A stretch of 64,000 nt of DNA from Lingula anatina (lineage: Eukaryota > Animalia > Brachiopoda), in contig CM120644.1 in the NCBI GenBank assembly GCA_051362555.1, forward strand, positions 16,700,534-16,764,533, given 5' to 3'. Every line of letters starts with the position of its first letter. The first letter of the stretch is position 1. Under the pieces are notes generated by a model. It made no database searches, was not told the DNA's origin, and saw only the letters and a program-made list of their open reading frames with translations. A program made the position numbers and the translations under genes. This document shows positions 5,736 to 64,000 of this stretch, in pieces.

Positions 5736-6269
5736 CTTTGAACCTCGGCTCGCCAAAGGGTACTCTAGGAACCGCCATATTCTTTGCCGACACGAGTCAC
5801 AGTCACGGGCGCGCTCAGCAACATCCGATGGCGTCACAAGTTCGCCAAACTCAGCGAGGAGTGCTTCGTTCTCATTCTGCTTCATCTCAAACGCAAAGCA
5901 GGACGCTCTGCAACAAGGTGCTAGGAATGTGATGTCGACCTTCCAAAAGTCCAGCTCCGCCAAGATGGCGGGTCCACAGAGGTTATGTGGGAAGTGCAAA
6001 GTCCCCGTGGAATAGAGCCCCAGAATGGCAGGAAAATACGTGGCGTCTCGTTCAAAAAATATGTCATGCTCAACCGGATCGACGTCATCTTCCGTCAGCT
6101 TGCTCAGCCTGGAATTTGGTATGCTAGCTAATGTGCCCCACTTTGATACGAATTTTGTGCCAGATATGTTTATGGTAACCCGATTGTTTGCTGGCAATGG
6201 AGCCTCGGTTGCAGGTGCCGTCTCTTGGGCATCCTCAAGGAATTTTGCCCCATTCGGTAAGGTGTCCAT
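5736..6269 (-). CDS. voltage-gated potassium channel (Kv), first coding exon with T1/BTB tetramerisation domain
   Basis: RVTINISGTKF...L..IPNSRL...IFFERD..YF.AIL..Y.TG.LHFP.NLC......ELDFW.V....LAPCC and the pre-S1 IWRFLEYP.AS.GSK motif. Exon ends at donor AAG|GTTAGT (5736/5735). S1-S6 exons were not recognised in the window. Confidence 0.85.
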
Positions 6270-8017
6270 GTTTTAGGAATGTACCTCTTGCTCCAGTCGG
6301 CTCCCTCCCGATCGATTATACTAGCAGTGTTCTATGCAAAGTTTATATAGCAGTGAATGCCAGCAGACCTTTTTGTGAATCCTTTAATTCCTCTGAGTGT
6401 ACTGTAGCAAATGTAAACGATGATTCCAAATTAGAGAGAATTACTTCATTTCGTTTGCAAAGCAACTTACAATGAAGTCGTAAGAAACAGCTACACATGC
6501 TTCAGCTAAAAATCCCGAATTTTAAGTCGATTATGTACACGGCTTCCACGTAATTTATATAAGAGCACATGATCAATACCCACAATTTGCATCAGTAATG
6601 ATACACCTATATATTAAGTGTGCAGTGTGCGTCAAGGCGATAAATATGTCGGTATTACATTATTCCTGATCCAAATCTTGCTCTCTTTGATTCTGTCAAG
6701 CTGTCTTCGCGTATGTCTTGGCTGAGATGCAATGTAGCCATATATCATTGGCACAAACAAAACCGATTACTGAGTCGACTTTTATCTCGTGTATCGTTCT
6801 TACCACACGACTGCTAAAGCTTTAAATACTTAATCCATGGTCCATGACTACCACAAAAATATCCGTATTTTGATAGACATCAATTATACAGCCGATAGCC
6901 CAAGGACCAATCCCTATTGAAACTATCGGTTTACGTAGATCGATTCAACCTCGCGTGGACTCTTGCTCAGTTTAACAGGTTCACACGCTCCCTCTTGGTT
7001 CCAACGTTCTTGTATAATCACCAATTTCCCTTTATTCTACTCAATGCCAGAAAGGGTGTAAATCTGCTCACTTGATTATATTCAGCGTGAGTCCTCGCAG
7101 AGATGGATCGATCTACGTAGAACTATAGTTTCATTGGGAATGAGCCCGAAGAAAAAGAATCCGTATTTTGGATCCCATCAATTACAGCCAACAGCACAAA
7201 ACGAATATGCTGGAATATGCTGGTAGTTAATCCCCGTTCTAAGTAGTCTCAAATAACGCATTTTATAATTCACTTAAACCGAGCTAGACCATCGATAAAA
7301 CTCTAATTACATTACGCAGCTTGTTGCAACATTGTTGGAAACCTATTAGCACACCGTCGCACTCTTTGGCTCCAAATCCCTTGAGAGAGGCTGAATGAAC
7401 ATCAGTAATATCCTAATGGATCATTCCGTTGTTAGAGCGTTAGTTGTCCCGTAAATAAGCATCAAAGGAAAAGATTCTGGCCACGTGTTATCGTTGCATT
7501 TTGATTATATTTTAATTGCTGTTCAGGTGACTTTTCTCTCTATAATAAAAATGATATGATTTGCCTTGTATATTTACCTTCCGATTAATCATTCGTTAAA
7601 CTTGAACGCAAAGAAATACTTAATTTGTTTATTCATCAACTGGCAGGCAATATGTCGCTTTGCAATTCCTTTCCAGCTGGAATAGACTTAATAAGGGTTT
7701 CAAAGAACTAGTATGTTAATATTTCACTGGAGATATTGATGCAAATGTCATAAGATAACTTTTTTGTCATAGGCCTATCAAATGAAACTGAATAATACTG
7801 CGTTTACTCGTTAGCTGAGGAAATTGTGAAATTCGATAACCGAAATATGTAATTCAAATAAGCTTTACAGTTTAGTAAGTTCACTTAAATGGTTGGAAAA
7901 TCTCATATATTGCTATATACCGTGTATTAGGCCCGGACGCTCCTTTTATGTGCCGTAAAATAAAGTTTTTCTTATCTTTTATCTTTTGTCATTACATATC
8001 TAGTTATGGATTTGATT

Positions 8018-9463
8018 TTAGGCCTTGTCTGATCTTGCAGCCATCTTTAGGAGTTCCACGGTCATTTCAGCGTATCTACTGGCCCGCATGTCGGTCACTC
8101 TATTGGTTCCATAGCTAAGAGTGTAAGCGAAGCGACCACGAAATTTGTGAAAGAAGTGGAGAAAAGGTATAAACATTTTATGTGAGGCTGCAGATATGAC
8201 AATACTCGTGGCATGAACTTCGTCGTTTCTTCCCCCAGGGGGACAAAGCTTGTCGCAGTCCCCAATATTGGAGGTGCCAAATTCAAATTTGCATTCTGGA
8301 TTTGACAACATCTGTTTCTCACTTCCGTCTCCAGCAGTGAAGTAATCCGATATTTTACAATTTTGTGTGACATCTCCACCATCAATCTTGGCGTGGATTG
8401 CATCCGTTGCACGCCTTGCTAGTTCCCAGAACGATTGATAGGTGGCAGTAGTAGAGACGGCCAATGTGACGTCCGTAATGCATATAAAATGCCCAAAAGC
8501 TCTGCTTAACTCGGGTGCCATAAAACGACGCATGTTAACAGCATGAGAGGAAGATATGTTCAAAATGCGTGGCATCTCTCCCGCATTTATAAGACTGGCC
8601 ATGGCGATGGAGGCAGCAGCAACAAGACTACCATGAACAGTCGCCCCACGATCCTTACATTTCGATATTATTCTTTCCGTTTCCGAAATAGTAAATTCCA
8701 GTGATAATGATTTCGTGTAGCTCCCATCTGATGTACTGGTAGAAGATTGCGGGAAACGTTCCATAAACAGGCTTTTACTTGGGAACCAACCTTTATACAT
8801 CATTTTCATCGCACAGAAATAGTCGCGCCAACCAAATGCCATTTTCTCCCTTGGCAACAGTTCTTCCAAAGGAGGTTGAAGCATCAGGACTTCGCTTCCC
8901 TCGGAGGGGCTACCTGTCACGACTTCGTTCAGGATGGAAATCATTCTGTGTAACATGAATAGGAGAGAGGTTCCATCGACGATCGAGTGATGTATTCCAA
9001 ACACGACTATGCTGGTGAACCAACTGTTATCAGCTAGGATGCGTCCTCCTTCTTTTTCTTTTACGCCACCCCTCGCTTTAGGCACGCGCAGAATCTCCAC
9101 GTTCCACAGAGGCCCACTGGTTGCATCAAACTGTTTGCGCATCATTTTTTCGTGCACAGTTGTCCAATTGTCGTCTGACGCTATATCAAAGACCGCGAGG
9201 TCTACACAGGGTTCGTTCATAAGATTGAAATGCCTCTTGCCGTTGTGCCAAACTATGGTCAATTGAAGATGCTGGATATCTGCTTGAAGACGTTCAAGAC
9301 ACAGTCTCCATACTTCATCAGTTACGAACTTTTTTGAATTTATCCACGAAGTAAATGCGACTGTGGCGACATTTCCCTCTTGCAACACAGCAAAATAGTT
9401 TTCGACCCCTCTTAGTGGGCGAAGGATGTTCTTGGGTTTCAAAGAGCAGGTGTTCGAAGCCAT
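8018..9463 (-). CDS. CoA-dependent acyltransferase, condensation/alcohol-acetyltransferase-like fold (481 aa, intronless CDS)
   Basis: N-terminal LRPLRGVENYF, FDATSGPLW, catalytic HHSIVDG, and a second domain with KCKDRGATVHGSL, AVNMRRF, FWELAR and GTSNIG. An acceptor (tttcag) lies just upstream of the ATG, so there is a 5' UTR intron; candidate donor GTAAGT near 10776. Confidence 0.75.
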   Translation of the reverse strand: MASNTCSLKPKNILRPLRGVENYFAVLQEGNVATVAFTSWINSKKFVTDEVWRLCLERLQADIQHLQLTIVWHNGKRHFNLMNEPCVDLAVFDIASDDNWTTVHEKMMRKQFDATSGPLWNVEILRVPKARGGVKEKEGGRILADNSWFTSIVVFGIHHSIVDGTSLLFMLHRMISILNEVVTGSPSEGSEVLMLQPPLEELLPREKMAFGWRDYFCAMKMMYKGWFPSKSLFMERFPQSSTSTSDGSYTKSLSLEFTISETERIISKCKDRGATVHGSLVAAASIAMASLINAGEMPRILNISSSHAVNMRRFMAPELSRAFGHFICITDVTLAVSTTATYQSFWELARRATDAIHAKIDGGDVTQNCKISDYFTAGDGSEKQMLSNPECKFEFGTSNIGDCDKLCPPGGRNDEVHATSIVISAASHKMFIPFLHFFHKFRGRFAYTLSYGTNRVTDMRASRYAEMTVELLKMAARSDKA

Positions 9464-10859
9464 TGTCTTAAAAGTGAACTGAAATTAACAAGATATTGTA
9501 TTTTTCGTTTGTGCTTCATCACAGGCAAGAATGAAATCCAATGACTGTATAACTAAAATAGCTTTATTAGGGATGTGATTGATGCATTTATAATTAAAAT
9601 GTCTTTGGCTATGGGTATCAATCGCTCCTAGACTGATTTTAAACTCTCCTCGGCAAGATTTAAATTTCAATCTCGCCTAAGCAGATTTGAAATCTGCCTG
9701 GAGTTCAATCTTGCCTGAGACATATATATTTCTTTGGTTACGTATAATTTTTATGTGATTTTGGCTCAGTGTTTGCGAATTAAAAACGAACAAATATGTT
9801 ATTTGTTGAATATATTGGTGCGAAAAAAAAACATTTGTGGAACCAAAATTTCACGCATTTTACGTGATATATTCGAATGAAAATCAGAGCAACGTGGTCT
9901 ATTAGTACTGTCATGCTTAAAACAATAGGAACATGAAATTACTGTTCCAAGTCATTAAATTAGCGTTCGAATACATAAACTCTTCACTCCAAGTAACAAA
10001 CAGTTACGTAAACGCTGTCCATTTTCGATGTAATTATGATTTTTTAGAGTTAAAATTTATAAATTGCGCCCATCTTAAAATGTGTACCCCGTGTGTCAAA
10101 ATGCAACGTTAGGCTAGTCTTGTTTAGAGTGCTGTGTTTCAAACCTGTTCCTCAATATATTCATGTTGCCATTGGTCAGAGGATAAAAAATGTTTTTTAT
10201 GGGCTAAAACCTAGTTCTGTGCCAACTGTAGTGTGCACGCAGAATTTCAATAAGTTACTTTTGCAATCCTCACTGTCTAAAGCAACCCGTGCTTCATCCA
10301 AGCAGCATGTCAGATCCAACAATGACATGTCTTTGAAATGGTTAACTTACAAACCCTCTTGACTTATCAGAATATATATTGAATGCAGTACCGTTTACTT
10401 AAACATTTTGTGTTCGAAAACACTACAGCTATTTCCTATCTATTTCAAAAACATGGTAAATGTTAGCAATGTTAGCTTTTTTAATTCCTATTTACTACTT
10501 ATAAAGAACATAAACATTGGTTTTTGAATATATGACTATTTTCAATCTATTCGAAAAAAGATAAGAAATTTCAACGGGTTTTTGTCAAAAATCCTACTCT
10601 GCCCATTGGACCAATTTCCCACAGGTAATACTACAGTAATTCCTATTTTCTATAGGATCCTATTGAATTTCCCATAGAATCCTATAAGATCGTTTAGAAA
10701 ATCATTCCATAGTAAATTTTTGTAGAGAGCTACAATAACGAAGGAAAACAAAAAAGAAATATAGAATACAAACTTACCACGCACTGAGAGCTAAAGACTG
10801 GTATGCGTGACGTCAACAACCTGCATTAGAACGCTCCATGAGTGGTTACATCAAAGTTA

Positions 10860-36583: not shown

Positions 36584-38055
36584 ATGTCGATATTACGGTT
36601 AATAACTTTATTAATTTTTTGTTTTGCTTGTGTTTCAATAGTATATTTTCTCCAGGATAATTACAGGTACGTACATATTATATTTAGATTGTCTTCATCA
36701 CCTAAACAAATGAAAACTAACAGTGTAATCTTTCGCTCTTTTCGACTACCTAAATCTCTGCATCACAATCTGCAGGAATACTTCCCGTAGAGAGTTTTTG
36801 TAAAATTTGTTGTTCTGAATTCTTGTGAACGATTAGACACCTATTTGTTCGTAATTCATACATGTCTATGCATCATTATATATAAGGAACACCGAACATC
36901 GAGACCTGGAGATCAACATTAACATCTCTTTTGGAGCTAGCGGGGATAGCGGTCAAAAAGAGTACCTGAATCATAAAGTACATCTAACAGAACCAAGAAA
37001 TGACCGCCCATGGTTTACAAGAACAACAACGAGAAGGAGGACCGGTGTTGGTAAACCACAGTTTAGCACAGACTTCGATAGAGAAATAAACGGAATTGCA
37101 CCACCTACACTGGAGGAAACTGCCAAAACTGGAAACACGTCTAGCAGTGGTGAGACTTCTTTTTATTGAAATTATTCATTTTGAACGTGCTTTAATTTGA
37201 TTTTAGATTTGAGCTGTATTAACATGGTATATTTTATTAAAAAAACCCTAAAATTGCTAAAAAAAAATGTAAAACGTCATATGATATCACACAGTATGCC
37301 CAAAAAAATCAGATCCGAAATTTAACACTTTTGGATACATATTTTAAACAATTATAATGATTAACTTCAAATACGTGATCAAAATGCGTTTTTAAAATTG
37401 TAAACATTAGCGACAATTAAACGCAGATTTTATTTACAAGTTGACAATCACCTTATAAATAAAGTACGTCATATGTTCGTTTTCAGACCGAGTGTGGAAT
37501 GCCTCATACTTGAAGGCTGTAGCTTTCTCGGTCTATGGCCGTTCCCTTCAAATCGTCAACGACGTTAAAGACAAGAGCCAAAATCACTTTGGTATTTGGA
37601 CACACAACTTTTATGGACTGCTCAGGGACTGCTGTGACAAAGTTCAGGCGACATCAGCAGGAATAGGTAAGATCCGGTTGTGACACTAATACGATCGTAA
37701 CTCTACTCCGTCGTGTTTCAGAGTGGATGATTATGTTTTTTCTTTAAATTTTGGAAAAAATATGTGTGTTATAAGATTTTCAGACATTGTCTATTTGAAT
37801 TAGCAAATTACAGCATGTCAGTGTCGATCTAAGGCTTATTCAGTTTAATTCGGAAAATGTCATGGAATATATACTTTCTTGTTTTAGTAAATGCCCTTGC
37901 AGATGCTGTTGAAGACAGCAAGAACTCTGCAGAAGAAGTCTTCGGGTTATTCAAGGACAGGGTTGTAGAACACATTGATAATGGCATCGCTCGAGTGCGC
38001 CTCTACTTCGTTCCTGAGTCTCCCGTAGAACGAAAGTGTAAGGGACATTCCAACT
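36584..38055 (+). pseudogene. truncated, frameshifted duplicate of orphan gene Z
   Basis: Near-identical to 44269-45736. It has a 2-bp insertion (ggtcaaaaagag vs ggtcaaagag, ~36955) and ends exactly at the MITE terminus at 38056. Confidence 0.85.
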
Positions 38056-38550
38056 CAGGGCCGTAGCCTGAGCAAAATGCCAGAGGGGGCAGTAAGCGGA
38101 CACGAGGGGGCGAAGCCCCCGAGGGGGGAGGGTGTGGGAAGGAGTGTCCCCCTCGCACGGTGTGGAAAATTTTTAAAAACTGTATGTATAATACTGCATT
38201 CTGGTGCATTTTAATTGTTATTTATTGGTCAATCAGAAGTCAGAAATTGTGGGTTCATTTTGCCATAAGTACAGTCATTTTTTCAACACAACACGCCAAT
38301 TGGCCTGGGGGATAGCTCCCTCAGGGAGGGTGAGCTTTTTGGCATAAACTGAGTTGGCTAAAAACAGTACACCTTTGTAAACAGATTGTTGAATGATTGT
38401 CTAGTGGCCATAAGTGCCTTTTCTCACAGAACTGATACCAACTTTGCAATTATTTTTTTTTTACCTTTGCGATTATTTTTTTTTTGCACCCCAATTTCCA
38501 GGGGGGGGCAGCTGCCCCCCCCCCCCTGCCCCTCGGAGGCTACGGCCCTG
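38056..38550 (+). mobile_element. element M, copy B, flanks caact / tttct
   Basis: Same TIRs and internal sequence as copy A. Confidence 0.9.
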
Positions 38551-39868: not shown

Positions 39869-40227
39869 AGGCTGCATTCAACGATGTTTTAACTGAAAAC
39901 GTTTTAGCGCGTTTACCGGGATGTTAATCGAAGCAGCTTCTTATTAAACGCTTGGGACACGGCAATACGGGGAGGACGGAGAGGGGGTGTAGTCCATTAT
40001 CAAAATCCCAACCGCCCCTGTCCCAACAACTGCAGGTAATCCCCGTGAACTGAACCGTCCATTTTCGCAAGTTAAAAAAATAAAACAGTCTTTTCTTAAA
40101 GTGTTTTAAATGCAACCCACAATTTCACAACCACAACATTGCAAACGAAAGATAGGTTTGGTTAAGGCTAGGAACCAAAGTAAAAGCCCCGTGCGTTGAA
40201 TATCAATTTTTCATAAGTAAGAGAGAC

Positions 40228-42149
40228 ATGGGCAGCGGCGGTGATGAACAATTCATGCGACGAGCGATAGAGCTGAGCGCAAGGGGGACCAGTTTGGGCG
40301 ATGGGGAGCCTTTTGGTGCGGTGATCGTAAAGGGCGGGAAGATCATTGGTAGGTGTAGTCTTTTCTGTATTCTTCCGACAGAAATGGGCATGTTAATCCG
40401 TGAAACTGTTTTGCATTCAGCTAAAGTCCCCACCGTAGCTAGCATGTTTAGTTTTACGTTTAAGTCCTGAGCTCACGGTTTTTCTTTCCTCAATTTTTCT
40501 CCTCGTATTATTAAACGGGTATAATGAGGTTTTTTGATGGGGAAAGTTTTTTTAACCCAGAGCGTTAATTCTCATATTTCTTCATATGAAGTGTATGTGT
40601 TGTAAAACATTGCTTTTAAAAGAAAATACGTGCATGTATCTATAAAAAATATGTAACCATATTTTTAAGTGGGAAAAGGAGGAATGTGTCAGGGACCCCT
40701 AAAAGTCTTAATGTAGTTTTAGAACTTCCGTAAAAGTGTAGGCAGAATCTTGTTCATCAAGTTTATTGTCATTGTTTAATCGAAGCCAGTTTGATCAGTC
40801 ACTGCCTAGAAGGATGTTGAGGTGGCCAAGTGACCTCTAATTTAATTAAGTTTGTTCAGACGGTCGAGGAGCGACCGGTAATTTGATTTAATCATATTAC
40901 TTGTATACCTGCATATAAGCTAGGTGGGGAACGTTATTCGAGAGAATTGATGTGAGACCTCGATGAGACACGACGATTGTAATACACGTACACATCAGAA
41001 TTAAATATTATTTATAGTAAGAAACTTTGCATGGGCTTGAGTTCGTTCTCTCACGCGTTTACTTGCGTATATTCAGACCTCGAACCTTGGACGAATTGAA
41101 CTGCGATCGTAATCGATCGGCGGCGGCTAATATTGCGTTAAGTTAACATCAGATCGGGCCGATACCCGACACCGAGTTGGATCAATCGAGAAGCATAGTT
41201 TCGTTGGGAATGAGCCCTCAGAGCCAAAAGTTGGACATATTTCTTAACGTCCTTTTTGAATAAAAAAAAGTGAATAGCTTGAGTGGTCAATATTTGGTAC
41301 ACTGATGTTTCAATGAATGGACCTTTAAGAGAAAAAAGTGAAATACTGCTTCAATCTTTACGAAGATATTGTCGGCTTGTGGGGGTCAGCCTACGAAATA
41401 ATTCTGAAAGTATCATATGCTTTAAAAAGCTCTGATAGGTACTCGTTAAAGACTTTTGTGAAATGCCGTGGAGGCATTGTTTACTCAAATTAATGATTAA
41501 AACAACTTCCTACTGGTTTCTTTCGCTTTGCATGCAAACTTTTTTATGATCAGCATCAACAACAACGGATAAATTATACGTTCCAATAATGGGCCCTGCA
41601 TGATCTTAAAACCTTTATGACTACCGGATGGAAGTCTAGAGAAGCGTGGAAGGAATGGTGCTCCTAGGAATGGAAGTCCAGGGTCCCATATGATAAGCAC
41701 AAGTTAGTGTTAGACGGACTATTGGGGTTAGTATATGGGACGAATGTTACCTGTACAAAGTAATTGGGAACTGACTACATTTTACAGCGGACTTCCGTTC
41801 CTGCCACCCCATCCCTGATAATTTTGTCAACGGTTTATAAACGTATAAGCAGTCAAGTTTTAAAATGAATAAAAAAACAGTATTTTACCTTGCAGGTGAA
41901 GGTTGGAACCGTGCCATAGTGGATCTCGACCCCTCCGCCCACGGTGAGGTAGTAGCTATCAAAAACACGTGCCGAAATATGAAGGCACGTGACCTGACCG
42001 GATGCGACATCTACACGAGCTGTGAGCCCTGTGCCATGTGTGCCGGCTTGATTGCTATCACAGGGTTTGTAAAGAATTAATCCCAATAATAATGATAATA
42101 ATAAAAATGATAATAATAGCAGTGGTTATCATAAAAATTATTGCAATGG

Positions 42150-42186
<37 letters not shown>

Positions 42187-42681
42187 GTTGTAACTCTCAA
42201 AGTCAATAATGCGCTATAGACTCTCCACCAATATCCAAGTACCCATGTACATCTCTGATGATATTTCTATTAATCCAAAAATTTCAAGCTCTTCACTCTT
42301 ATGGTCTAGGAGGAAAGACTAGCTGTGACTAACGCATGGACGTGCAGGGTAACGTGATCGTATATTGTGCAAAGTCTTTGAAAAATAATTGCCACTGTTA
42401 TCCATATTTAGTAAGTGTCAACGTCATTTTGCCTTCACTATTTCCATGATTAGCTTTCGCTATTTCTTTTCTTTTTCAGAATTGGGCGTATATTTTACGG
42501 TACCACTCTGGAAGCTATAAAGCCTCACTTCACCTTGGACTACGCGGCTTCATATCGGGATTTTCATCTACCAGTACACCAGCGACATCTACCGGCAAAA
42601 CAACTCCTGGCTGAGGACGCATACAAGGCTGTCAACGATGCTTTCCCTATCAGGCACAATAACCTGGCGGCAGATGTTTAA
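40228..42681 (+). CDS. Zn-dependent CDA-fold deaminase, GuaD-like, copy 2 (3 exons, 163 aa)
   Basis: Exons 40228-40348, 41896-42064, 42480-42681. Frame is intact, with about six amino-acid differences from copy 1. Confidence 0.88.
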
Positions 42682-42892
42682 TACTTATAAATAAGTGAAA
42701 GTTATCTAATTGAAAGGCGTTATATAATATAAAGTGACTCACTGCTTAAGATGCATATGAACTCAATTTTTGCCACAAAAGTCTACCAAATGCCAGCATG
42801 TACTTTCAAATAATATAACTAAGAGAATTACCAAAAGACATCGTTAAATAACCGAAAAATGATATTTAAACATACCTTTCTGCTAGCTTTCT

Positions 42893-43377
42893 CAGGGCCG
42901 TAGCCTGAGCAAAATGCCAGAGGGGGCAGTAAGCGGACACGAGGGGGGAGAGTGTGGGAAGGGGTGTCCCCCTCGCACGGTGTGGAAAATTTTTAAAAAC
43001 TGTATGTATAATACTGCATTCTGGTGCATTTTAACTGTTATTTATTGGTCAATCAGAAGTCAGAAATTGTGGGTTCATTTTGCCATAAGTACAGTCATTT
43101 TTTCAACACAACACGCCAATTGGCCTGGGGGATAGCTCCCTCAGGGAGGGTGAGCTTTTTGGCATAAACTGAGTTGGCTAAAAACAGTACACCTTTGTAA
43201 ACAGATTGTTGAATGATTGTCTAGTGGCCATGAGTGCCTTTTCTCACAGAATTGATACCAACTTTGCAATTATTTTTTTTTTTACCTTTGCGTTAATTTT
43301 TTTTGCACCCCAATTTCCAGGGGGGGGGGGGGGGGGGGCAGCTGCCCCCCCCTGCCCCCCCGGAGGCTACGGCCCTG
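42893..43377 (+). mobile_element. element M, copy C, flanks tttct / gagtt
   Basis: Same TIRs; small internal deletion in the GC-rich hairpin. Confidence 0.9.
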
Positions 43378-44268: not shown

Positions 44269-47200
44269 ATGTCGATATTACGGTTAATAACTTTATTAAT
44301 TTTTTGCTTTGCTTGTGTTTCAATAGTATATTTTCTCCAGGATAATTACAGGTACGTACATATTATATTTAGATTGTCTTCATCACCTAAACAAATGAAA
44401 ACTAACAGTGTAATCTTTCGCTCTTTTCGACTACCTAAATCTCTGCATCACAATCTGCAGGAATACTTCCCGTAGAGAGTTTTTGTAAAATTTGTTGTTC
44501 TGAATTCTTGTGAACGATTAGACACCTATTTGTTCGTAATTCATACATGTCTATGCATCATTATATATAAGGAACACCGAACATCGAGACCTGGAGATCA
44601 ACATTAACATCTCTTTTGGAGCTAGCGGGGATAGCGGTCAAAGAGTACCTGAATCATAAAGTACATCTAACAGAACCAAGAAATGACCGCCCATGGTTTA
44701 CAAGAACAACAACGAGAAGGAGGACCGGTGTTGGTAAACCACAATTTAGCACAGACTTCGATAGAGAAATAAACGGAATTGCACCACCTACACTGGAGGA
44801 AACTGCCAAAACTGGAAACACGTCTAGCAGTGGTGAGACTTCTTTTTATTGAAATTATTCATTTTGAACGTGCTTTAATTTGATTTTAGATTTGAGCTGT
44901 ATTAACATGGTATATTTTATTAAAAAACCCCTAAAATTGCTAAAAAAAATGTAAAACGTCATATGATATCACACAGTATGCCCAAAAAATCAGATCCGAA
45001 ATTTAACACTTTTGGATACATATTTTAAACAATTATAATGATTAACTTCAAATACGTGATCAAAATGCGTTTTTAAAATTGTATACATTAGCGACAATTA
45101 AACGCAGATTTTATTTACAAGTTGACAATCACCTTATAAATAAAGTACGTCATATGTTCGTTTTCAGACCGAGTGTGGAATGCCTCATACTTGAAGGCTG
45201 TAGCTTTCTCGGTCTATGGCCGTTCCCTTCAAATCGTCAACGACGTTAAAGACAAGAGCCAAAATCACTTTGGTATTTGGACACACAACTTTTATGGACT
45301 GCTCATGGACTGCTGTGACAAAGTTCAGGCGACATCAGCAGGAATAGGTAAGATCCGGTTGTGACACTAATACGATCGTAACTCTACTCCGTCGTGTTTC
45401 AGAGTGGATGATTATGTTTTTTCTTTAAATTTTGGAAAAAATATGTGTGTTATAAGATTTTCAGACATTGTCTATTTGAATTAGCAAATTACAGCATGTC
45501 AGTGTCGATCTAAGGCTTATTCAGTTTAATTCGGAAAATGTCATGGAATATATACTTTCTTGTTTTAGTAAATGCCCTTGCAGATGCTGTTGAAGACAGC
45601 AAGAACTCTGCAGAAGAAGTCTTCGGGTTCTTCAATGACAGGGTTGTAGAACACATTGATAATGGCATCGATCGAGTGCGCCTCTACTTCGTTCCTGAGT
45701 CTCCCGTAGAACGAAAGTGTAAGGGACATTCCAACTGGTACGCAAAGAGCGCGTGCACACTTTTGTTCCAAGCTGCTGAATACCCTCCACAGCTTGTCTC
45801 CACTCTGGCGAAAGGATACGACAGATTTTTCGAAGTGGCCGCAAGGTTCTTCGTACGTGAGACGTACAAAGATAAGATCTGCAAAGGCTACGACACCGTG
45901 CCGTTCCTTCGGAAGGTCTGCGAGACAGGATTTGATGTGGCGTCAATGGCGAATGATATCCTAGAAAATGTCCAAGAGTTCCTCGGCAAATGTATTGCAC
46001 AACCAACTTTAGACTTTGCCCAGAAAGTAATCACATCTATAACAGACGGTGCATGGAAAGCTGCCGAGGGATTTTCAAGAGCCTGTCACAATGGGATGCA
46101 CCTGGGAAATAGAATTACAACTTACATTTATCAAACCTTGGACATCGAAGCGGCTAAAGGTGGGCAAAATGTAAACTTGTCTTTTGTTTTCACTGGGTTA
46201 GCAGTATAAGAACAGTTGATAGCAGCAATAATTGGCAATTCAGGTTAAAGTTATTATCCAGTAAAACTCACGTCATCAGAAATGTTTTATGATTTTGATT
46301 ACTTGGATACTTTCATTTCTATATTGTTTTCTGTCCTTCTCGGACATAGAAGGAAATTGAATCACTATTTTATTATCAAAGTAACAATAATAATTTCATC
46401 AAAAAACAGCTAAACTCGGCAGCTATTTTCACTTCAGTATTTCAGTGTCTACCAAGTGGTCAGCTGTTTTTTTTTTTTTTTTTAACACTATTACCATACT
46501 TTTGAAAACATAACACAGCTTATGACATTCGGTGCTGGAATATCCTGTTCTGTTTTCCAGCTCTTCTGTATTCCGTGTTAAAGAAGGCTGCGTACAAAGT
46601 CCATGACGTCTACGTACGTCTTCCCCGCTTCAATGGTGATCCCATACATGACGGGCTGGTGGTTGTAGCCTGGGTGGTGTGTGTCCTAGCCCAGGGGTTG
46701 GTGGTCTACTGGACCAAGAGGAAGATCAGTCTAGGTAAAATATCTTGCCGTGTTACAAGTATGTATTATGATAAATATTTCCAGGCCTTGCCATTGCCTC
46801 TGTCTCATTAATCACCAAAGAAAATGGAAATTTTATTTTGTTTCGTTTAACATATTGAATAAGCCGTAAATGAAGTTAATTATTTACACAAGAGTGAAAA
46901 ATACTTCAAATCTTTTAATCGAATCATGAAAGTGGCCTAATATTTGTCCTTTTTACTGGATTAATTTCATCTTATTTTATCTTATTTTATTTTTATCATT
47001 GTAGATAACAACATAAGAAGGGCCCGTCAAATGCGACTTCGTTTCTCCCATCCCATATCATCAGAGGATTACTATGACAGGATTGCGAGGCTAATTAGAG
47101 AGGAGGATGGAAAAGATGATACAGAACGCGAGGACGCCGAACACGTTGATGAGACCGAGAGCTTTCAACATGTAAAATCCACCTCTGGTGTTACTGACAA

Positions 47201-49699: not shown

Positions 49700-50197
49700 C
49701 AGGGCCGTAGCCTGTTCAAAATGCCAAAGGGGGCAGTAAGCGGACACGAGGGGGCGGAGCCCCCGAGGGGGGAGGGTGTGGGAAGGGGTGTCCCCCTCGC
49801 ACGGTGTGGAAAATTTTTAAAAACTGTATGTATAATACTGCATTCTGGTGCATTTTAACTGTTATTTATTGGTCAATCAGAAGTCAGAAATTGTGGGTTA
49901 ATTTTGCCATAAGTACAGTCATTTTTTCAACACAACACGCCAATTGGCCTGGGGGATAGCTCCCTCAGGGAGGGTGAGCTTTTTGGCATAAACTGAGTTG
50001 GCTAAAAACAGTACACCTTTGTAAACAGATTGTTGAATGATTGTCTAGTGGCCATGAGTGCCTTTTCTCACAGAATTGATACCAACTTTGCAATTATTTT
50101 TTTTACCTTTGCGATTATTTTTTTTGCACCCCAATTTCCAGGGGGGGCAGCTGGCCCCCCTGACCCCCCCCCCCCCCCCCCCCCCCCCCCCGGAGGC
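49700..50197 (+). mobile_element. element M, copy E, perfect 5-bp TSD tttct / tttct
   Basis: gc-tttct-CAGGGCCGTAG...CTACGGCCCTG-tttct-atg. Confidence 0.92.
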
Positions 50198-52231: not shown

Positions 52232-53909
52232 CTAAGGTCGAATGAATGTACTGTCACAGAAAAGACAGCGTTTTCATTCAATCTTACGGTACAGTTTTAA
52301 AGGAAAACGTTAAGTTTTACACGTTTACTGAATTGTCTTGTATATTGTAAACATTCATAGGTAATTTTCCCAAACAGAATTAATATTTTAACTATGTAGA
52401 AATAAAACAGAAATATAAAAAACTGAGTAAAATAATTAAAAAGAATTGGTCTATATTTGTATTACATAAAGTTTCTCTTGATTTGAAAATTCTGAAAGAA
52501 AATGTTGGCACGTTGTTTCATTAAATCACTTTTAATGACCGGTAATTGGATATAACTTACTAAACGAAAGTCATAAAGAAAATTTACAACATGTGAAAAA
52601 ATGAATTCAACTTATTATAAATTACCTAAGATATTTTATCTTAGACAACGATCTGTGGTCGTCAGCGCCGGGCAGTGAGAAACTGTAATATCCAGCACAG
52701 CTTCTACGGTGAAGGCTTCTTGTGCGCCGTAGACATCGATGGCCAGTCGTCTTGGTCTCAGGACACGGCGAGAAGAGACCCTACGTAGTATTCAACACAG
52801 TCACTGTAACTAGATAGAGTGATTGCGACAGTTGTGATTGCGATAGTAGCGTAAGTGTAAAATGTAAAGAATATAACGAAAATAGCACTTACCTAAGTGC
52901 ATTTAGTACATTTAGTGCATGATAGCCCTTGCGGCAAACATATAAATTTTCCTCTCTGTGTGGTGCATTTGGGAAGCTGTCAATGAGGTGAAAGCCACCC
53001 TTCACGGCTCTAACCTCGACTGGAGTTGACGGGAATCTGATGGTGAGAGCAGGGTCTCTGCTCTCCAAGATGGCTCCCACCACATTGTGAACTGAACGCG
53101 ACACAGAGGCTGCGGAGATCCCAAGGCTGTCTCCAATCACAGCCTGAAAGCTCCCCGTCGCAAGCACGCCAAGACAGGCAAGAACTTGTGTGGTGGGGGA
53201 GAGTGCTTGGGACTTGCTGTTCTACGCTGCAGCTGGCCTTCGATCTTCTCCGTCAGCAGTCTGATGCCCCTCTTGGACAGCCTGTACCTCCTCAGTACTC
53301 CTCTCTCTGTCTGCTCTTCTAAGACGTCTCGTCGCGGCATGTAAATTCGCCTACTTTCGTTTCGAAAGACAAGAAAAGCTGCAGCCATTGCGTTACGCGA
53401 ACGCCAAGTTACGCATGCGCAAAGACTTAGCGACTGGGTTGGAGCTGTACCAAATATCTTGCGCAAATAGCGCATGATTTTGAACAAAATTACATTGCAA
53501 AACGTTCTTGCAAGGGTCTGTTCTCAAAAAGGGACTTTGCGCAATTGCGCAAATTGCGAAACGTTTTGTGAAAGCCGGCCCTGGTTCGTTTTTGAAAAAC
53601 GAAACTGGAAACTTGACACTAATTTCAGCCCCTACTTATCACCTGATGTAAAGGAGGCGCAACTAACGCTTTGGATGTGAAAGCTACTGATACTGGAAAA
53701 TACCTATGGAACCCCCAAATCAAGAAAGAGGGGGGTCTACGCGGGTTTCTGGGTTTCATGGCTTAAATAATACTATGGGATCCAGGCACATCGCTCGAAA
53801 AGATTAATACAGTAGACAAAGATAATTTACAGCAATGTGTGGGTTTTGTTACTCTTTTTCATCAGTGCACCACTGAAATATGTACAAAATCGCATTGCTT
53901 TTTCACGCT

Positions 53910-57655: not shown

Positions 57656-60600
57656 TTAAAATTTGTAATTAAGCTTGAAATCCGAACCAATAACACTTAA
57701 TAATCGACTTGCTTGGTCAAATTTGCCTTTAACTATCAATTCAGTGACAATATATTTTCTCATATTCATCAGAACTTTTTGTAATATCTTCAATTTTACC
57801 GAATAGATATTCAAATCCAGAAATTTAATTTTAAAATGGTTGGGTGGGAAATGCTCTTCATAGAATTCACGAGCTTTCTCAAAACACGTAAGTGTGCGAA
57901 TGTCGGTAACCTTTCCAAGAAGTAGTGTAGTGCCAACATTCGAGTATGCCCCAGCAGTGTCATGATGTTTCTCACCAAATACTTCTTTACTAGCGTTAAG
58001 AGCTTCTTCAGCATATTCAAGTGCCTCTGTGTAATTACCCATGGCGATCAATGCACAGGCCATGTTGTGGTATAAGAGGATGGTATCAGGGTGTTTCTTG
58101 CCAAGTAAGTCTAACCTTACTCCAAGAGATTTCTTATAGTATACAAGAGCCTTTGCTGGCTCACCTATCTCACTAAGTGCAAAACCTTTATTGCTGTATT
58201 CACTGGCGGTGTCAAGGTGTTTGAAACCAAGGACATTTTCCCGAACTTTAAGACATTTATCATAGAATGCAAGTGCTTCTCTATACTTACCCATGTGTGC
58301 AAGCGTCAAACCCATACTGCTATAAGTATCAGCAGTATCCGGATGATCGGAGCCAAGGACTTCCTCCCTGCACTCAAGACATTTGTGTAAATATCCTAAT
58401 GCTTTTTTATACTTACCCATGGAACCCATTAACTTGCCGATGCTGTAGTATATAGCAGCTGTTTCAGGATGCTTCGGGCCCATGAGCTCTGTCATAATGT
58501 CAAGGCTTTCACTGTAACGTTTGTTTGCCTCGTTTTCCTTACCAATTCTCGTTAGTATATCACCTATGTTTGTACTTGCTCTTACAGTCTCAATGTGCTT
58601 TGAGCTAAATACTTCTTTTAAAATTGCATGAGATTTCTTAAAATATGGTAATGCTTCTGTTTTCTCATCCATTTGGCTTAATGTGCTACCAATATTGTTG
58701 TATGCTTTGGCAGTTACAGGGTGTTTGTGGCCAAGAACTTTTTCAAATACTGCAAGGCATTTCTTGTGATAATCGAGTGCTTCTATATACATCCCCATTT
58801 CTTTATAAGCATTGCCCATATTGGTGTAAGCCGAAGCAGTATGAATGTTATCGGAACCAAGAGATCCCTCCAAGATATCAATACTTTTCTGATGGAATGT
58901 TATTGCTTCTTTGTAACTACCCATTTCTTTCAGCAACATGCCAAGTGCGTCATATCTGAGGGCGGTATTAGGATGTTGGGGACCAAACACTTTCTCAAAG
59001 ACCTCAATACTTTTTTTTCGATAGGTAAGTGCTTCTTCATACTTACCCATGAACCCCAGTGTGCATGCGATTGTGCTATATGTAGAGGCAATATCAGGAT
59101 GGTCGGACCGAAGGTTTTCTTCCTGAACTTTGAGACATTTTTTCAAATATGAAAATGACTTTTCATACTCACCCATTACCATCAGGGCATTGCCTATTTT
59201 GCTGTAAGCTAGAGCCATCTCGAGTTGTGTGCATCTTTGAGACTTTAGCATGATATCAACACTTCTTTGATAATATTTGCAGGCATCTTTATATTCCCCC
59301 ATCCCAAAAAGTGTATCGCCAATGGGCATATACACGATTGCACCAAATGGTCGCAATGCACCTTCTTGCACCAACGTTTCTAACGGTTTAAGCATAGTTA
59401 AGGCTTCAGAATATAGGAATAGATTAAGTAATACATGGGCAATGCACGACAAATTTTTGAGTGTAATTTTTTCGTCGGGTGGTTTGCTGTTTCTGAGTTG
59501 ATCTGACAGCAAATCAGCAATAACCTTAAGATGTGGCAGAATTTTTCGTGCTGTTTCATACGTTTCCTTAGAAGGAAAGGTATCGAACTCGGATAGAAGC
59601 AGGGGAGTTTGTTTCATGTAATGTTCGCAATATGCATCTTGAATACGAGACATTTCGTTTTGATCTTTCCGTGCTTGTAACTCTGCATAAGCTCTTAAGA
59701 GGGGATGGAGATCATAGACATATGGGTCTGCACTCAGAATGGATTTGTTGGAAAGACTGTCAAGGATAGTTTCACATTCATCCTCTTCTGTTTCCAAAAT
59801 TTCTGAAACTTCTTCCAAAGAAAATGAAACTGGGAAAATATACAAAGCCCGGAACAATTTTTGTTCTTCAGTATTCAGCGTTTCGTAATACATATCTAGG
59901 CATGTCATCATTTCTTGAGAAGGTGGAAGATTTGGTACCTTAAAGCTTTCAATGACATTTTTAGTTTTCATCCTATCCAATACTTTTTGTGCAGTTTTTT
60001 TCTTGAGTTGCACTGATAATAATTTCAGTGCAAGGGGATTTCCCCCACATTTTTCTGCAATTTCACCTAACAATATTGACTCACTATCGGTTGGACTAGT
60101 GGTTTTTCCTGCCCAAAGGATATCAATCGAGGGGTCCTTATCAAGGGGAGGTACGTCTACGACAGCATTATTATGCGACATGGCACTAAAAGCTTCGCGA
60201 CAAGTACATAATAAAGTGATATGCTTTGTTGAATTCAAAATATCTTGCACCAAGTTGTGAAATTTTTGTAAATCTGACTTAATGACCTCATCATTGTTAT
60301 CAAAAATTATTACGGTGTCTGTAGTCAAACTGGACAAAGTTTGAATGAATTTGTTTTGATAATCACTGTAGACATCTTTCAGGGATGTGATTGGATGGTA
60401 ATGCTGGGCTAGAGATAATTTAACAGATTCAAGTTGGGTAACTTGTCTCATATCAATATACAATACATTTTGCTCTCGATGCCCAGCTTCGATGGCTAGT
60501 GATGTCTTCCCTATACCCCCCATTCCAGTTAAAAGAACAAGTCTGGTTTCACCTGCAATGTGCTGCCGTATTTGTTGTACCAGTTCTTCTCGTCCTTTAA

Positions 60601-62091
60601 GGTCAGCAAGTTTTCCTGGTAATTGTACTGAGAGAAGCTTACATGGAGCAACTGGAAAATCAAACAATAGGAAAACTTTTTTTAAAAAAAATGCCCATCT
60701 TGGCAATATATCTATATGTACATTAAGTTTTATAATTGACGGAATATTACACAATGAAATTTTTTGAATAATGAATTTTAATAAATCCATATTATATTGT
60801 TCCTATGCCAAATATTTATGGTTCTGTTCTTTCTAGCTTTGAAATTTCAATGCTTTTACATCACAGTTATATAGTTACAATCTACTGTTTTGCGACATAA
60901 TGCAAGAAAATCTGTACTGTTTTGCAATAATGTGACCACAACTAATATAAAGGATATGTTGTTCGATTCTGACTGTATATATATAACATATACGATTCAG
61001 TAAGCTTTCACTACAAACACATGTACTTCATTAGACAGCATCACATATAGGGCCATTCAGAATAGATGATCCAAGTACTAACTGATCCGCTGACTACATG
61101 TAAATATGATCGACCGACCACACTTCAAAACGATGCCGTTGATTCCAAATGATCTCCCCGGCTCCACACGCGCCATTAAACGAATTAAATCTTTGCTATG
61201 AGGTTTAATTGCTAGGCCCCTGCAGCGACGGCGAATGTGGAGGCAGGGATACCATCATGGAATAAGTAGTATCGCCTTTGAACTGGGGTGGCCATTCAAG
61301 TGGGTTGGCCATATTAAGTCGGCAAAACAGTTAGCACTCAGGCTGTGTATTCTGAATGGGGCCACAGTTTTTCCTATCCCTTACAGTGGACATGTCAGAA
61401 TTAAGCGCATTAAACATTTATAAAATGATGAAAAGGTAAAGCTAGTTTCTTAAAATTAAGAACTAATCCTCTGTCATTGAACCCCACTGTATGTAAATTT
61501 AAGTAAATTACCTTTAGCTTCCAGTGGCACAATAAGAAGCTTGTCGTAATCATCGGTGGAATATATTGATGACAATGACAAAAGGATATGTTTGAGGTCA
61601 TTAAACTCTGCCTGAAATGTTATATCAGCTATTCCAGGGCTTGCATGCATGTGGTTATTGCGGTATGTCTTCACTCTACCAATGTTGGCCTCAATGGTGG
61701 TGTCTGAAGCTGGTGGGTTTTCCCATTTAGCACCAGGGTTCAAATTTGTGACATTTCTTAAGAAAACCACTGCAAGCGTAATATCTAACTCCTGCAATGT
61801 CGCAGTTGTTGAAGGGCTGCCAAAGGGGTACAGGAGTTTCATTTGTTTCGAATTCATTACATTTCTTTTCTTCAATTGAAGCAACGAGTGTTTAACTTTT
61901 TGATTGTCAAGTATGTCAAAGAGTTTGTCACTTTTACTGGGATCAAATAGCCCTGGGTAAGCTGCTTGTAGCTGAGTCCCGAGAACATCTCGAAGCACGT
62001 CGGTTGCACGTTCTAAGAGCAGTCGCATACGGAAATAATTTTCTTTTTCATTTATTGGGATTTCAGAGGGTATTCCCAGTGTTGCTGCCAT
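57656..62091 (-). CDS. HEPN (DZIP3-like) - NB-ARC/STAND NTPase - TPR protein, 2 coding exons, ~1191 aa
   Basis: Exon 62091-61512 (LDITLAVVFLRN...W..PP..D.TIEANIGRVKTYRNNHMH) joins exon 60651-57656 in phase 1 (AAAG|GTAATT ... TTTCCAG|TT). Exon 2 has GREE, Walker A GMGGIGKTSLA, Walker B IIFDN, CTCRE, CGGNPLAL, YDLHPLLR, then twelve 42-aa TPRs. Confidence 0.88.
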
Positions 62092-62169
62092 GGTAAAACG
62101 GCTGGGTTCTACGAAAAACAATAGTATCTATCTTATTCTATTAAATCAATAAAATGGGTGTTAAATCTT

Positions 62170-62240
<71 letters not shown>

Positions 62241-62709
62241 GAGAGACAGAATCTTTGAGAATTTAACAAATTTCTTTTAATCACGGATGTATGTCGTATA
62301 CTTATCTAAATAATTGAGAAAATTATAATATACGGTATATATAATATGAGATTGTACTTTGTCCATTATAAGCACGCTGGTCAGCTCCGGTCAGCTCCGA
62401 GAAAAGTCAAATTTTAAGATAGAAACACTCAAGTGATTGCATTCAAATTTGGCGTGGGCATTACCTAATGTGCAGGGAGCTTTCAGAAACCAAGCACAGA
62501 GACGACTGTGACCCAGGAATCTAGAAAAAGGTCTTTCAAATCGATTCATAAATCAAGATCGAGACAAAGGTAAAGTTGAAATTTATCAGTTGCAGAGATG
62601 ATTATGTAAGACTGTGTAACTCTCAATTGTGACAGAACACAAAACAAAGACTGCTCACAAGCACCCTGTGTATACAGACGATCTCAAACCTGTTGGCTAA
62701 CTATGCATA

Positions 62710-63750
62710 ATGACGAAAGGCAAAAGAAAGAGCAGAGGAAGTGGAGGATGTGATATGGAGGGTGCGGAAAATCAAGCGAAGAAAGGATGCCAGATAAACA
62801 CCCCGCCCGAAAATAAAGCTACAAGTGAAATTCTACACGAAGCAAATAAAGTGCTACACCATGAAGAAAAAGATGGGGCAGTATTGAAAAGTGACAGGTC
62901 ACCAGTGTTTACACTTGAAAACAATGGGAAAAATACAGACCAGGTGACGAAAGAAGATGGGAAAAAAGAATCTGATGCGGTAGCGGGACTTTCGGATAAA
63001 TTAGACAAGGTAATCACAGTTGTCACAGAGCTTCGAAAAAACCAAGATACACTAAAGAAAATGTTCGAATCTAAATTAGACAGGTTTAAGGAAGAAGTTC
63101 TGATGAACATGAACACTAAAATAAAAGCGCTTGGGGATGAGTTGACCCTAGATATCAACAAAGAATCGGCCAGAATAGATGGGGTGTTAAAATCATTGGA
63201 TGATATACAAGAAAGAATTGAGAAACTAGAGGCAAATGGCATCTCCGATACACCAAGTGGAGGAATATGGGAACCAGAATACCCGCCAGACAAGACATGT
63301 GTGATTAGTGGTATGATAGAAGAATGGGGAGAAAATCTGCAAGGGAAATGTGAGCAGCTGATTAGTAAGGGCCTTGGTCTACGGGATACGGTCCCCATAA
63401 GATGTATGAGAATGAAATCTAGCAGCAATAAACCGGGTCTAATAAAGGTACAGATGAAAACTCATGCCGAAAAACTTGACATTCTTAAAGCAAAAGTCAA
63501 GCTTGGGAAGAAAGGCAGCGGGTATGAAAAAGTGTATATTCGGAGTTATTTAACACCAGAGGAATTGAGTAGGAGGCAGACCACAAGGACGCTTCTGAAT
63601 ATGATGCCTAACGGAAGGGATTACAGGTTAACGCGCAATGGTCGGCTGGAAAAAAGAGATACAAACTTGGTGGAAAGCAGTCTTGAACATCAGAGTGGAT
63701 TGAGTCACGGTGGATCGATTCATGGCAGAGCAAATGGTAGTGCACGCTAG
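62710..63750 (+). CDS. LINE ORF1 (coiled coil plus L1-ORF1-like RRM/CTD region)
   Basis: 346-aa ORF with a long heptad region, then CVISGMIE...KPGLIKVQM...K.DILKAK.KL...VYIRS. It lies directly before an APE domain. Confidence 0.8.
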   Translation: MTKGKRKSRGSGGCDMEGAENQAKKGCQINTPPENKATSEILHEANKVLHHEEKDGAVLKSDRSPVFTLENNGKNTDQVTKEDGKKESDAVAGLSDKLDKVITVVTELRKNQDTLKKMFESKLDRFKEEVLMNMNTKIKALGDELTLDINKESARIDGVLKSLDDIQERIEKLEANGISDTPSGGIWEPEYPPDKTCVISGMIEEWGENLQGKCEQLISKGLGLRDTVPIRCMRMKSSSNKPGLIKVQMKTHAEKLDILKAKVKLGKKGSGYEKVYIRSYLTPEELSRRQTTRTLLNMMPNGRDYRLTRNGRLEKRDTNLVESSLEHQSGLSHGGSIHGRANGSAR

Positions 63751-64000
63751 GAAGAGGCCCAGCTACAAAGAAGCACACTTAAAATTGGGCAGTTGAATGT
63801 GTGTGGTTGGACTATAAGGAACGAGGAATTGAGAAAATGTTTAATTAAGGCTTCGGGCTGTGACATAGTATGCATATGTGAAACTCATCTTATTGGAGAA
63901 AAATCATTAGAGATGGACGGTTATAAGTGGCTAGGTTTAAATAGACAATCTCTACATGTAAGAGCCCCTAAGGGATCAGGGGGGGTTGGTGTTTTGATAA
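63751..64000 (+). mobile_element. LINE ORF2 N-terminus, apurinic-like endonuclease (RTE-X-like, clade tentative), runs off the window
   Basis: LKIGQLNVCGW...DIVCICETHL...MDGYKWLGLNR...APKGSGGVGVLI. Confidence 0.88.

What the first reader, a model, noticed from the sequence alone, without database searches (positions are those of the whole stretch)
57656..62108. Animal HEPN-nuclease / NB-ARC / TPR receptor: an Avs- or fungal-NLR-like tripartite immune sensor
Seen: two ORFs that the track lists separately splice in phase into one intact ~1191-aa protein. It has an N-terminal DZIP3-type HEPN domain with a complete RxxxxH motif (RNNHMH), a STAND NB-ARC with intact Walker A/B, GxPLAL and xHxL motifs, and twelve diverged 42-aa TPRs. 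Established: effector-STAND-TPR is the layout of bacterial Avs antiviral proteins and fungal NLRs; HEPN RxxxxH domains are RNases activated by dimerisation (Cas13, Csm6, RNase L/Ire1 KEN); canonical animal NLRs instead use death-fold-NACHT-LRR. DZIP3-like HEPN fusions have been noted computationally in invertebrates, but I know of no functional characterisation. Inference: TPR ligand binding drives NTPase oligomerisation and switches on an RNase, a death-domain-independent cell-autonomous defence system.
Basis: partly seen in the sequence, partly recalled or inferred. Interest (0 to 1): 0.85.

Follow-up and report, generated by a model that had tools for sequence, protein, structure and literature searches.

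The report
Brachiopod RNase-armed immune receptor gene
An intact gene with two coding exons, from a Lingula-like brachiopod, encodes a HEPN domain, an NB-ARC ATPase switch and twelve TPR repeats; it likely works as an intracellular sensor that would switch on RNA cutting, and the same domain layout is already catalogued, untested, in corals.

Summary
A GT-AG phase-1 intron (61511-60652) joins two exons into a stop-free 1191-aa protein: HEPN_DZIP3 with RNNHMH, an NB-ARC-type STAND with intact motifs, and twelve 42-aa TPRs. Seven paralogues reproduce the junction. No RNA read showed it, and the RNA test lacked a positive control. All close relatives are Lingula anatina paralogues. The layout is not new: coral genes annotated 'DZIP3-like_HEPN, NB-ARC, TPR' are listed in PMC10236652's supplement, five other proteins with it turned up here, and this scan noted it on two other genomes. 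Human SAMD9/9L already show an animal RNase-STAND-TPR defence protein, with a different RNase. Added here: (1) variation between repeats concentrates on the TPR ligand-binding face, and several paralogues have near-identical repeats, as in fungal NLRs; (2) in gene models the same HEPN exon, predicted phase 1-1, is also joined to ROC-COR (95% identical copy), an IRG-type GTPase and a DED-like domain. The immune role, ligand, oligomerisation and RNase activity are inferred. It is not an Avs member. Verdict: a new member of a known, functionally untested kind.

The parts
62092..62108 (-). Predicted 5' part of the HEPN exon, after an acceptor AG at 62110-62109; with it the exon is 597 nt, phase 1-1
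   Evidence: sequence; not confirmed by RNA
61512..62091 (-). Coding exon 1: DZIP3-type HEPN domain, aa 1-193
   Evidence: (PF18738 E 6e-29)
61645..61662 (-). Rx4H motif RNNHMH (aa 144-149), predicted RNase site
   Evidence: R144 and N145 invariant, H149 nearly invariant in 29 sequences
60652..61511 (-). 860-nt GT-AG phase-1 intron
   Evidence: junction matches paralogues; no spliced read
61053..61359 (.). Repeat element in the intron with 43-nt imperfect inverted arms (MITE-like by inference)
   Evidence: I2; reads there run on unlike the window
59657..60651 (-). Exon 2, STAND/NB-ARC module (NBD, HD1, WHD), aa 195-525: Walker A 60526-60503, Walker B 60313-60296, GNPLAL 60043-60026, LHPL 59710-59699
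59354..59656 (-). Helical arm between the WHD and the repeats, aa 526-626
   Evidence: model helices; 22-69% identity to paralogues over aa 526-635
57842..59353 (-). Twelve 42-aa TPR repeats, aa 627-1130, predicted sensor
   Evidence: (126-nt period)
57656..57841 (-). C-terminal helical cap, aa 1131-1191, and stop codon
   Evidence: 52-57% identical in 4 close paralogues; model

Best explanation
This is an intact HEPN / NB-ARC / 42-aa-TPR gene of an expanded Lingula family, and it likely encodes an intracellular immune receptor whose variable TPR face would bind a foreign or altered protein, release the ATPase switch to oligomerise, and so pair the HEPN heads into an active RNase. Shown: gene structure, domains, intact motifs, the paralogue family and the pattern of repeat variation. 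From known families: resting STAND-TPR proteins are ADP-bound monomers held shut by sensor-NOD contacts and multimerise on induction (PMC6468293 abstract); HEPN RNases build one site from two Rx4H motifs (recalled). Inferred: that this protein does the same, that the ligand is a pathogen protein, and that the outcome is RNA cleavage with translation arrest or cell death. The HEPN exon likely moves as a cassette between NTPase and GTPase scaffolds.
For: Domains pass Pfam cut-offs. The STAND-TPR model (pLDDT 88.4) has PH0952, an autoinhibited STAND-TPR, as best Foldseek match (E 1.9e-13, TM 0.63 on the target). The HEPN model (pLDDT 89.5) has Csm6 as best VIA match (Z 7.3, rmsd 3.6, 116 aligned). 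Rx4H is kept in 10 of 11 HEPN-STAND-TPR paralogues. Against the five closest paralogues HEPN and NB-ARC are 75-84% identical but the TPRs 41-57%. In 123 repeats from 12 proteins, positions 6, 9, 13, 16, 17 are 5 of the 6 most variable; by my mapping they are TPR positions 2, 5, 9, 12, 13, the concave binding face (PMC1261162 passage). Within-protein identity there is 8-38%, against 15-93% on exposed helix-B positions, lower in 12 of 12 proteins. Fungal NLR TPRs show the same pattern under positive selection (PMC4986451 passages). The other scaffolds carrying this HEPN (ROC-COR, IIGP GTPase, DED-like) also belong to immune or cell-death families (recalled).
Against: No spliced read, and exon depth of 0.24 or less in 1 of 4 RNA runs and 0 in the other 3; there was no positive control, so the blank is not interpretable, but expression is unshown. 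The HEPN fold match is weak: Z under 8 is in the chance range for helical bundles, and Foldseek found nothing at E <= 0.001. Concave positions vary in TPRs of any function (PMC1261162), I picked them after seeing the entropy table, and position 35 is as variable as position 17. No dN/dS test was possible. This gene's own repeats are old (35% mean identity), without the internal conservation of its paralogues. The nearest prokaryotic relatives of the ATPase are mostly transcription regulators and cyclases, so the module itself does not imply immunity. My searches found no functional test of a DZIP3-type HEPN receptor.
Confidence: 0.6

Rival explanations
1. The protein is a STAND sensor, but it guards a host protein or senses self/non-self or stress, and its HEPN head signals or binds RNA without cutting.
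For: Fungal NLRs with variable repeats act in allorecognition (PMC4986451 passages). Some HEPN domains are non-catalytic RNA binders (PMC3710099 passages). One paralogue lacks the histidine and one lacks the arginine (P0015, P0097).
Against: Rx4H is intact here and in 10 of 11 HEPN-STAND-TPR paralogues across 52-84% HEPN identity.
Confidence: 0.22
2. The gene is an intact but silent or dispensable copy in a birth-and-death family and has no current function.
For: Almost no exon reads in 4 RNA runs. No identical or >85% identical protein was found (closest 69-70% overall). Some paralogue models are truncated or lack Walker A (P0010, P0015). A non-LTR retrotransposon starts about 600 nt upstream.
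Against: A 3576-nt frame without a stop, with every motif and both splice sites intact. The RNA test had no positive control, and immune genes are often inducible (recalled).
Confidence: 0.13
3. The two ORFs are not joined: they are a solo HEPN and a separate headless NB-ARC-TPR.
For: No junction read. Gene models of a HEPN that reads through the donor (P0004) and of STANDs without HEPN (P0014 partial, P0112) exist.
Against: Canonical in-phase splice sites that reproduce the junction of 11 fused paralogue models, 4 of them as K-VAPC.
Confidence: 0.05

Closest known systems
Coral DZIP3-like HEPN / NB-ARC / TPR proteins (orthogroup OG0000193, PMC10236652 Additional file 17)
   Same: Identical three-domain order. 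15 of the 30 OG0000193 rows shown (of 53) carry it, and it occurs in five coral species. Five unnamed proteins with it lie among the 145 best new STAND hits.
   Different: The Lingula STANDs form their own clade outside the clade holding those proteins and two named anthozoan ones, but one joint clade is not rejected (p-AU 0.2). The Lingula repeats score far higher on the 42-aa TPR_10/12 models (against 108, 111). None has been tested.
Fungal NB-ARC-TPR NLRs (Podospora Pa_2_10340; PMC4986451 passages)
   Same: Effector / NB-ARC / kinesin-light-chain-type TPR, variation on the concave face, high internal repeat identity in several paralogues (66-75% in P0010-P0012).
   Different: The cited example has a sesB-like head rather than HEPN; positive selection is shown there and untested here.
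SAMD9/SAMD9L (PMC11221667 passages)
   Same: Animal protein with an RNase head, a STAND and a TPR region likened to PH0952; antiviral; needs no death-fold domain.
   Different: Schlafen-like AlbA2 RNase rather than HEPN; functionally proven; no sequence match was found in my searches.
Bivalve, cnidarian and amphioxus HEPN_DZIP3-NACHT proteins (PMC9646362, PMC8260672, PMC13012124, PMC8662601 passages)
   Same: Same effector family at the N-terminus of a STAND; lineage-specific expansion; RNase role proposed.
   Different: NACHT rather than NB-ARC; sensors are LRR, WD40 or TPR.
Bacterial Avs (AVAST) proteins (PMC13581612 passages)
   Same: Effector / STAND / TPR-like sensor logic.
   Different: No PADLOC Avs model matched; Avs3 is only rank 17 with TM 0.18; eukaryotic spliced gene.

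Membership tests
HEPN_DZIP3 (PF18738) | Profile match above the curated cut-off | tested here: met
   101 bits against 27
HEPN_DZIP3 (PF18738) | Rx4-6H motif at the end of the core helix | tested here: met
   RNNHMH 144-149 at the end of helix 133-148
HEPN RNases | HEPN fold | tested here: inconclusive
   Best match Csm6, Z 7.3, with AbiF, Cas13 and Swt1 also listed, but within the chance range; Foldseek nothing at E <= 0.001
HEPN RNases | Dimer-dependent RNA cleavage | not testable with these tools
   needs an assay
STAND, NB-ARC/AP-ATPase class | NBD-HD1-WHD with Walker A/B, sensor 1, GxP and hHxL motifs | tested here: met
   best solved relatives AfsR, Roq1, Apaf-1; fold match to PH0952
STAND, NB-ARC/AP-ATPase class | Ligand-induced oligomerisation | not testable with these tools
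   the full protein exceeds the complex tool's size limit as a multimer
Canonical animal NLR | NACHT plus LRR | tested here: not met
   NB-ARC and TPR; no NACHT or LRR among the 25 families shown of 40
Invertebrate HEPN / NB-ARC / TPR NLR-like proteins | Three domains in this order | tested here: met
Invertebrate HEPN / NB-ARC / TPR NLR-like proteins | Common descent with the coral proteins | tested here: inconclusive
   separate in both trees with weak support; joint clade p-AU 0.2
Avs (AVAST) | Match to Avs family models | tested here: not met
   no Avs model at E <= 0.1 for either domain in PADLOC 2.0 of 2023, which predates newer Avs families
Fungal-type NLR with highly conserved internal repeats | Near-identical repeats with variable concave positions | tested here: inconclusive
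   met in paralogues P0010-P0012, not in this gene (35% repeat identity); concave variability met
Fungal-type NLR with highly conserved internal repeats | Positive selection at those positions | not testable with these tools
   no paralogue or allele DNA is held

The most novel reading that the evidence does not exclude
Lingula runs a combinatorial RNase-based immune system. One symmetric phase 1-1 HEPN exon is still being swapped among NB-ARC-TPR, ROCO and IRG-type GTPase scaffolds, while the TPR sensors diversify their binding face as fungal NLRs do, and the HEPN / NB-ARC / TPR fusion arose independently of the coral one.
Probability: 0.25. Interest if true: 0.7.

Novelty: new member of a known kind. 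Interest (0 to 1): 0.42.

Why it matters
HEPN-headed STAND receptors are common in invertebrate genomes, but my searches found none that has been tested. This gene has every motif intact and only two coding exons, so it is a clean test case for whether animals use sensor-triggered HEPN RNases as bacteria do. The family also offers natural controls (a paralogue without the histidine, the same head on GTPase scaffolds) and a defined set of five repeat positions for finding ligands. The layout itself will not surprise a specialist.

Tried and rejected
No genome is held for this window, so paralogues were counted from RefSeq proteins only. RNA: no RNA holder was listed; 4 of 9 same-label runs were laid, giving 129 reads, 123 only partly on the stretch, nearly all in the intron repeat; a positive control was not obtained. 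HEPN dimer prediction: no verdict, score 0.00, alignment not used. No solved sequence relative of the HEPN exon. No HEPN relative in metagenome or viral contigs. Recent transfer from bacteria was considered and is unsupported: the 160 prokaryotic and metagenomic loci kept match at about 21-32% over long stretches, higher only on short Walker A segments, and the best non-Lingula STAND hit is a soft-coral protein. Atlas neighbours of a paralogue's STAND were fungal and bacterial NB-ARC clusters, which says nothing on origin; the whole-protein Atlas search did not complete. No second copy in the window. A possible 28-codon upstream exon ending at 62465 is in frame, but that is expected by chance about one time in ten and was set aside. 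Gerdol et al. 2018 on Lingula immunity is not held and may describe this family; the supplement of PMC9646362 could not be read; five supplement files of PMC10236652 were not searched.

Full report
Observation. On the minus strand an ATG at 62091 opens a 580-nt exon that ends at a GT donor after 61512. An 860-nt intron ends in TTTTCCAG before 60651, and a 2996-nt exon runs to TAA at 57656. Joined, they give 1191 aa without an internal stop. Pfam finds HEPN_DZIP3 (E 6e-29) in exon 1, and NB-ARC (E 1.6e-10, above cut-off) and TPR_10/TPR_12 in exon 2. The model of exon 2 (pLDDT 88.4) shows the ATPase, a helical arm, twelve hairpins at 42-aa spacing and a cap.

Splicing and expression. Five in-frame acceptors lie nearby. 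Only 60651 gives the junction PL[ED]AK-VAPC found in 4 paralogues; 3 more read PLHAA-EAPC, and 4 have related joins. P0014 begins exactly at exon 2, and P0004 ends by reading through the same donor. Four RNA runs with the same species label gave 129 laid reads, 123 only partly matching and nearly all in an intron repeat. No joint was seen, and exon depth was at most 0.24 in one run and 0 in three. No positive control was obtained, so expression is open.

Family. All 11 hits to the HEPN exon among 1328 candidates are Lingula anatina proteins, 53-84% identical. The profile search gave 29 hits: 16 from Lingula and 13 more distant ones carrying HEPN and a second NTPase, those with names from corals. 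Of the 16, 11 are HEPN-STAND-TPR; the others join the same HEPN to ROC-COR (P0006), LRR plus weak ROC-COR (P0097), an IIGP GTPase (P0096), a weak DED (P0004, below cut-off) or no known domain (P0095). In most, similarity stops at the position of this gene's donor. The HEPN of P0006 is 185 of 194 residues identical to that of the STAND-TPR protein P0008 and groups with it (93/92). With the predicted acceptor at 62109 the exon is 597 nt and phase 1-1, the class of exon that shuffles without frameshift (recalled). Recent cassette shuffling is therefore likely, but these are automatic gene models whose joins I could not check. Rx4H is intact in 10 of the 11 STAND-TPR paralogues. The window protein is at most 69-70% identical overall to any of the four compared, so it is a new sequence.

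Sensor variation. Against the five closest paralogues HEPN and NB-ARC are 75-84% identical and the repeats 41-57%. A gap-free profile found 123 repeats in 12 of 13 proteins, 4 to 14 each. Positions 6, 16, 13, 9, 35 and 17 are the most variable. Using the recalled TPR consensus, 6, 9, 13, 16 and 17 map to positions 2, 5, 9, 12 and 13, which line the concave binding face (PMC1261162, passage). Within single proteins identity at these five is 8-38%, against 15-93% at five exposed helix-B positions; it is lower in 12 of 12, only marginally in P0008. P0010-P0012 have 66-75% repeat identity; this gene has 35%. Fungal NB-ARC-TPR receptors show this pattern with positive selection (PMC4986451, passages). 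Selection was not tested here, and these positions vary in TPRs generally.

Structure and ATPase class. The HEPN model (pLDDT 89.5) had no Foldseek match at E <= 0.001. VIA ranked Csm6 first (Z 7.3), with AbiF, Cas13 and Swt1 lower; this is consistent but within the chance range. The ATPase profile matches AfsR (E 4e-13), Roq1 and Apaf-1 best, and the exon-2 model matches PH0952 best. No Avs model matched.

Origin. The full-library search found 70,252 proteins at E <= 0.001 and listed 150. The best non-Lingula hit is from the soft coral Dendronephthya. Of the 145 new proteins, 7 carry a DZIP3-type HEPN. Pfam on 40 of the 145 showed 5 with HEPN_DZIP3, NB-ARC and TPR, and 5 with DUF4559 (recalled as the CXorf38 HEPN family), one from Actinia. 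In a 144-row tree (14 of 158 rows dropped for short matches) and a 39-row subset, the Lingula STANDs form their own clade with weak placement. Holding them with the HEPN-bearing clade is not rejected (p-AU 0.2). One origin or two is open, and the hits were chosen with a Lingula profile.

Mechanism. Most likely the protein rests ADP-bound with the TPRs against the ATPase, as shown for PH0952 and MalT (PMC6468293, abstract). A ligand on the TPR groove would free it to oligomerise, pairing HEPN heads into an RNase that arrests translation or kills the cell. The parts are shown; every functional step is inferred. I put this at 0.6, a non-cutting or self-sensing role at 0.22, a silent copy at 0.13 and unjoined ORFs at 0.05.

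Comparison and novelty. [quoted passage not shown] HEPN-NACHT receptors and an RNase role were proposed in PMC3710099, PMC9646362, PMC8260672, PMC13012124 and PMC8662601 (passages). SAMD9/9L are proven animal RNase-STAND-TPR antiviral proteins with another RNase (PMC11221667, passages). Seven searches (listings only, except the papers named) showed no functional test of a DZIP3-type HEPN receptor and no account of this Lingula family or its exon swapping. The library lacks most subscription papers, including Gerdol et al. 2018. Two earlier notes of this scan reached the same verdict on other genomes; I had found the coral table before reading them. Verdict: real, intact, a new member of a known but untested kind; interest 0.42.

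Noticed in passing
window 62701-64000 (+): Start of a non-LTR retrotransposon: a 349-codon ORF1-like frame with no Pfam match, followed directly by an endonuclease-like frame (APE motifs judged by eye). It points away from the gene, about 600 nt upstream of it.
   Followed up: partly
window 61053-61359: Intron element with 43-nt imperfect inverted arms; the only part with RNA depth in all four runs, from reads that continue into other sequence.
   Followed up: partly
P0006 / P0111 (LOC106162424): HEPN-ROC-COR gene model whose HEPN is 95% identical to that of a STAND-TPR paralogue.
   Followed up: partly
P0096 (LOC106165415): HEPN joined to an interferon-inducible (IRG-type) GTPase domain, E 1.5e-67; its motif is Rx5H.
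   Followed up: partly
P0141, P0153, P0203, P0217, P0238: A related NB-ARC carries DUF4559 heads in place of HEPN_DZIP3, mixed within one clade, suggesting exchange between two HEPN families.
   Followed up: partly
window 52889-53523 (-): Two overlapping short frames that look by eye like a broken Harbinger-type transposase.
   Followed up: no
window 40156-42681 (+): Exon-sized frames of a deaminase-like gene by eye.
   Followed up: no
window 37833-38315 and 45514-46209 (+); 42887-43135; 49711-49959: A duplicated coding start, and three copies of a short repeat with similar translation.
   Followed up: no
window 5724-6272 and 8018-9484 (-): A potassium-channel T1-like exon and a 488-aa condensation/acyltransferase-like ORF, by eye.
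   Followed up: no
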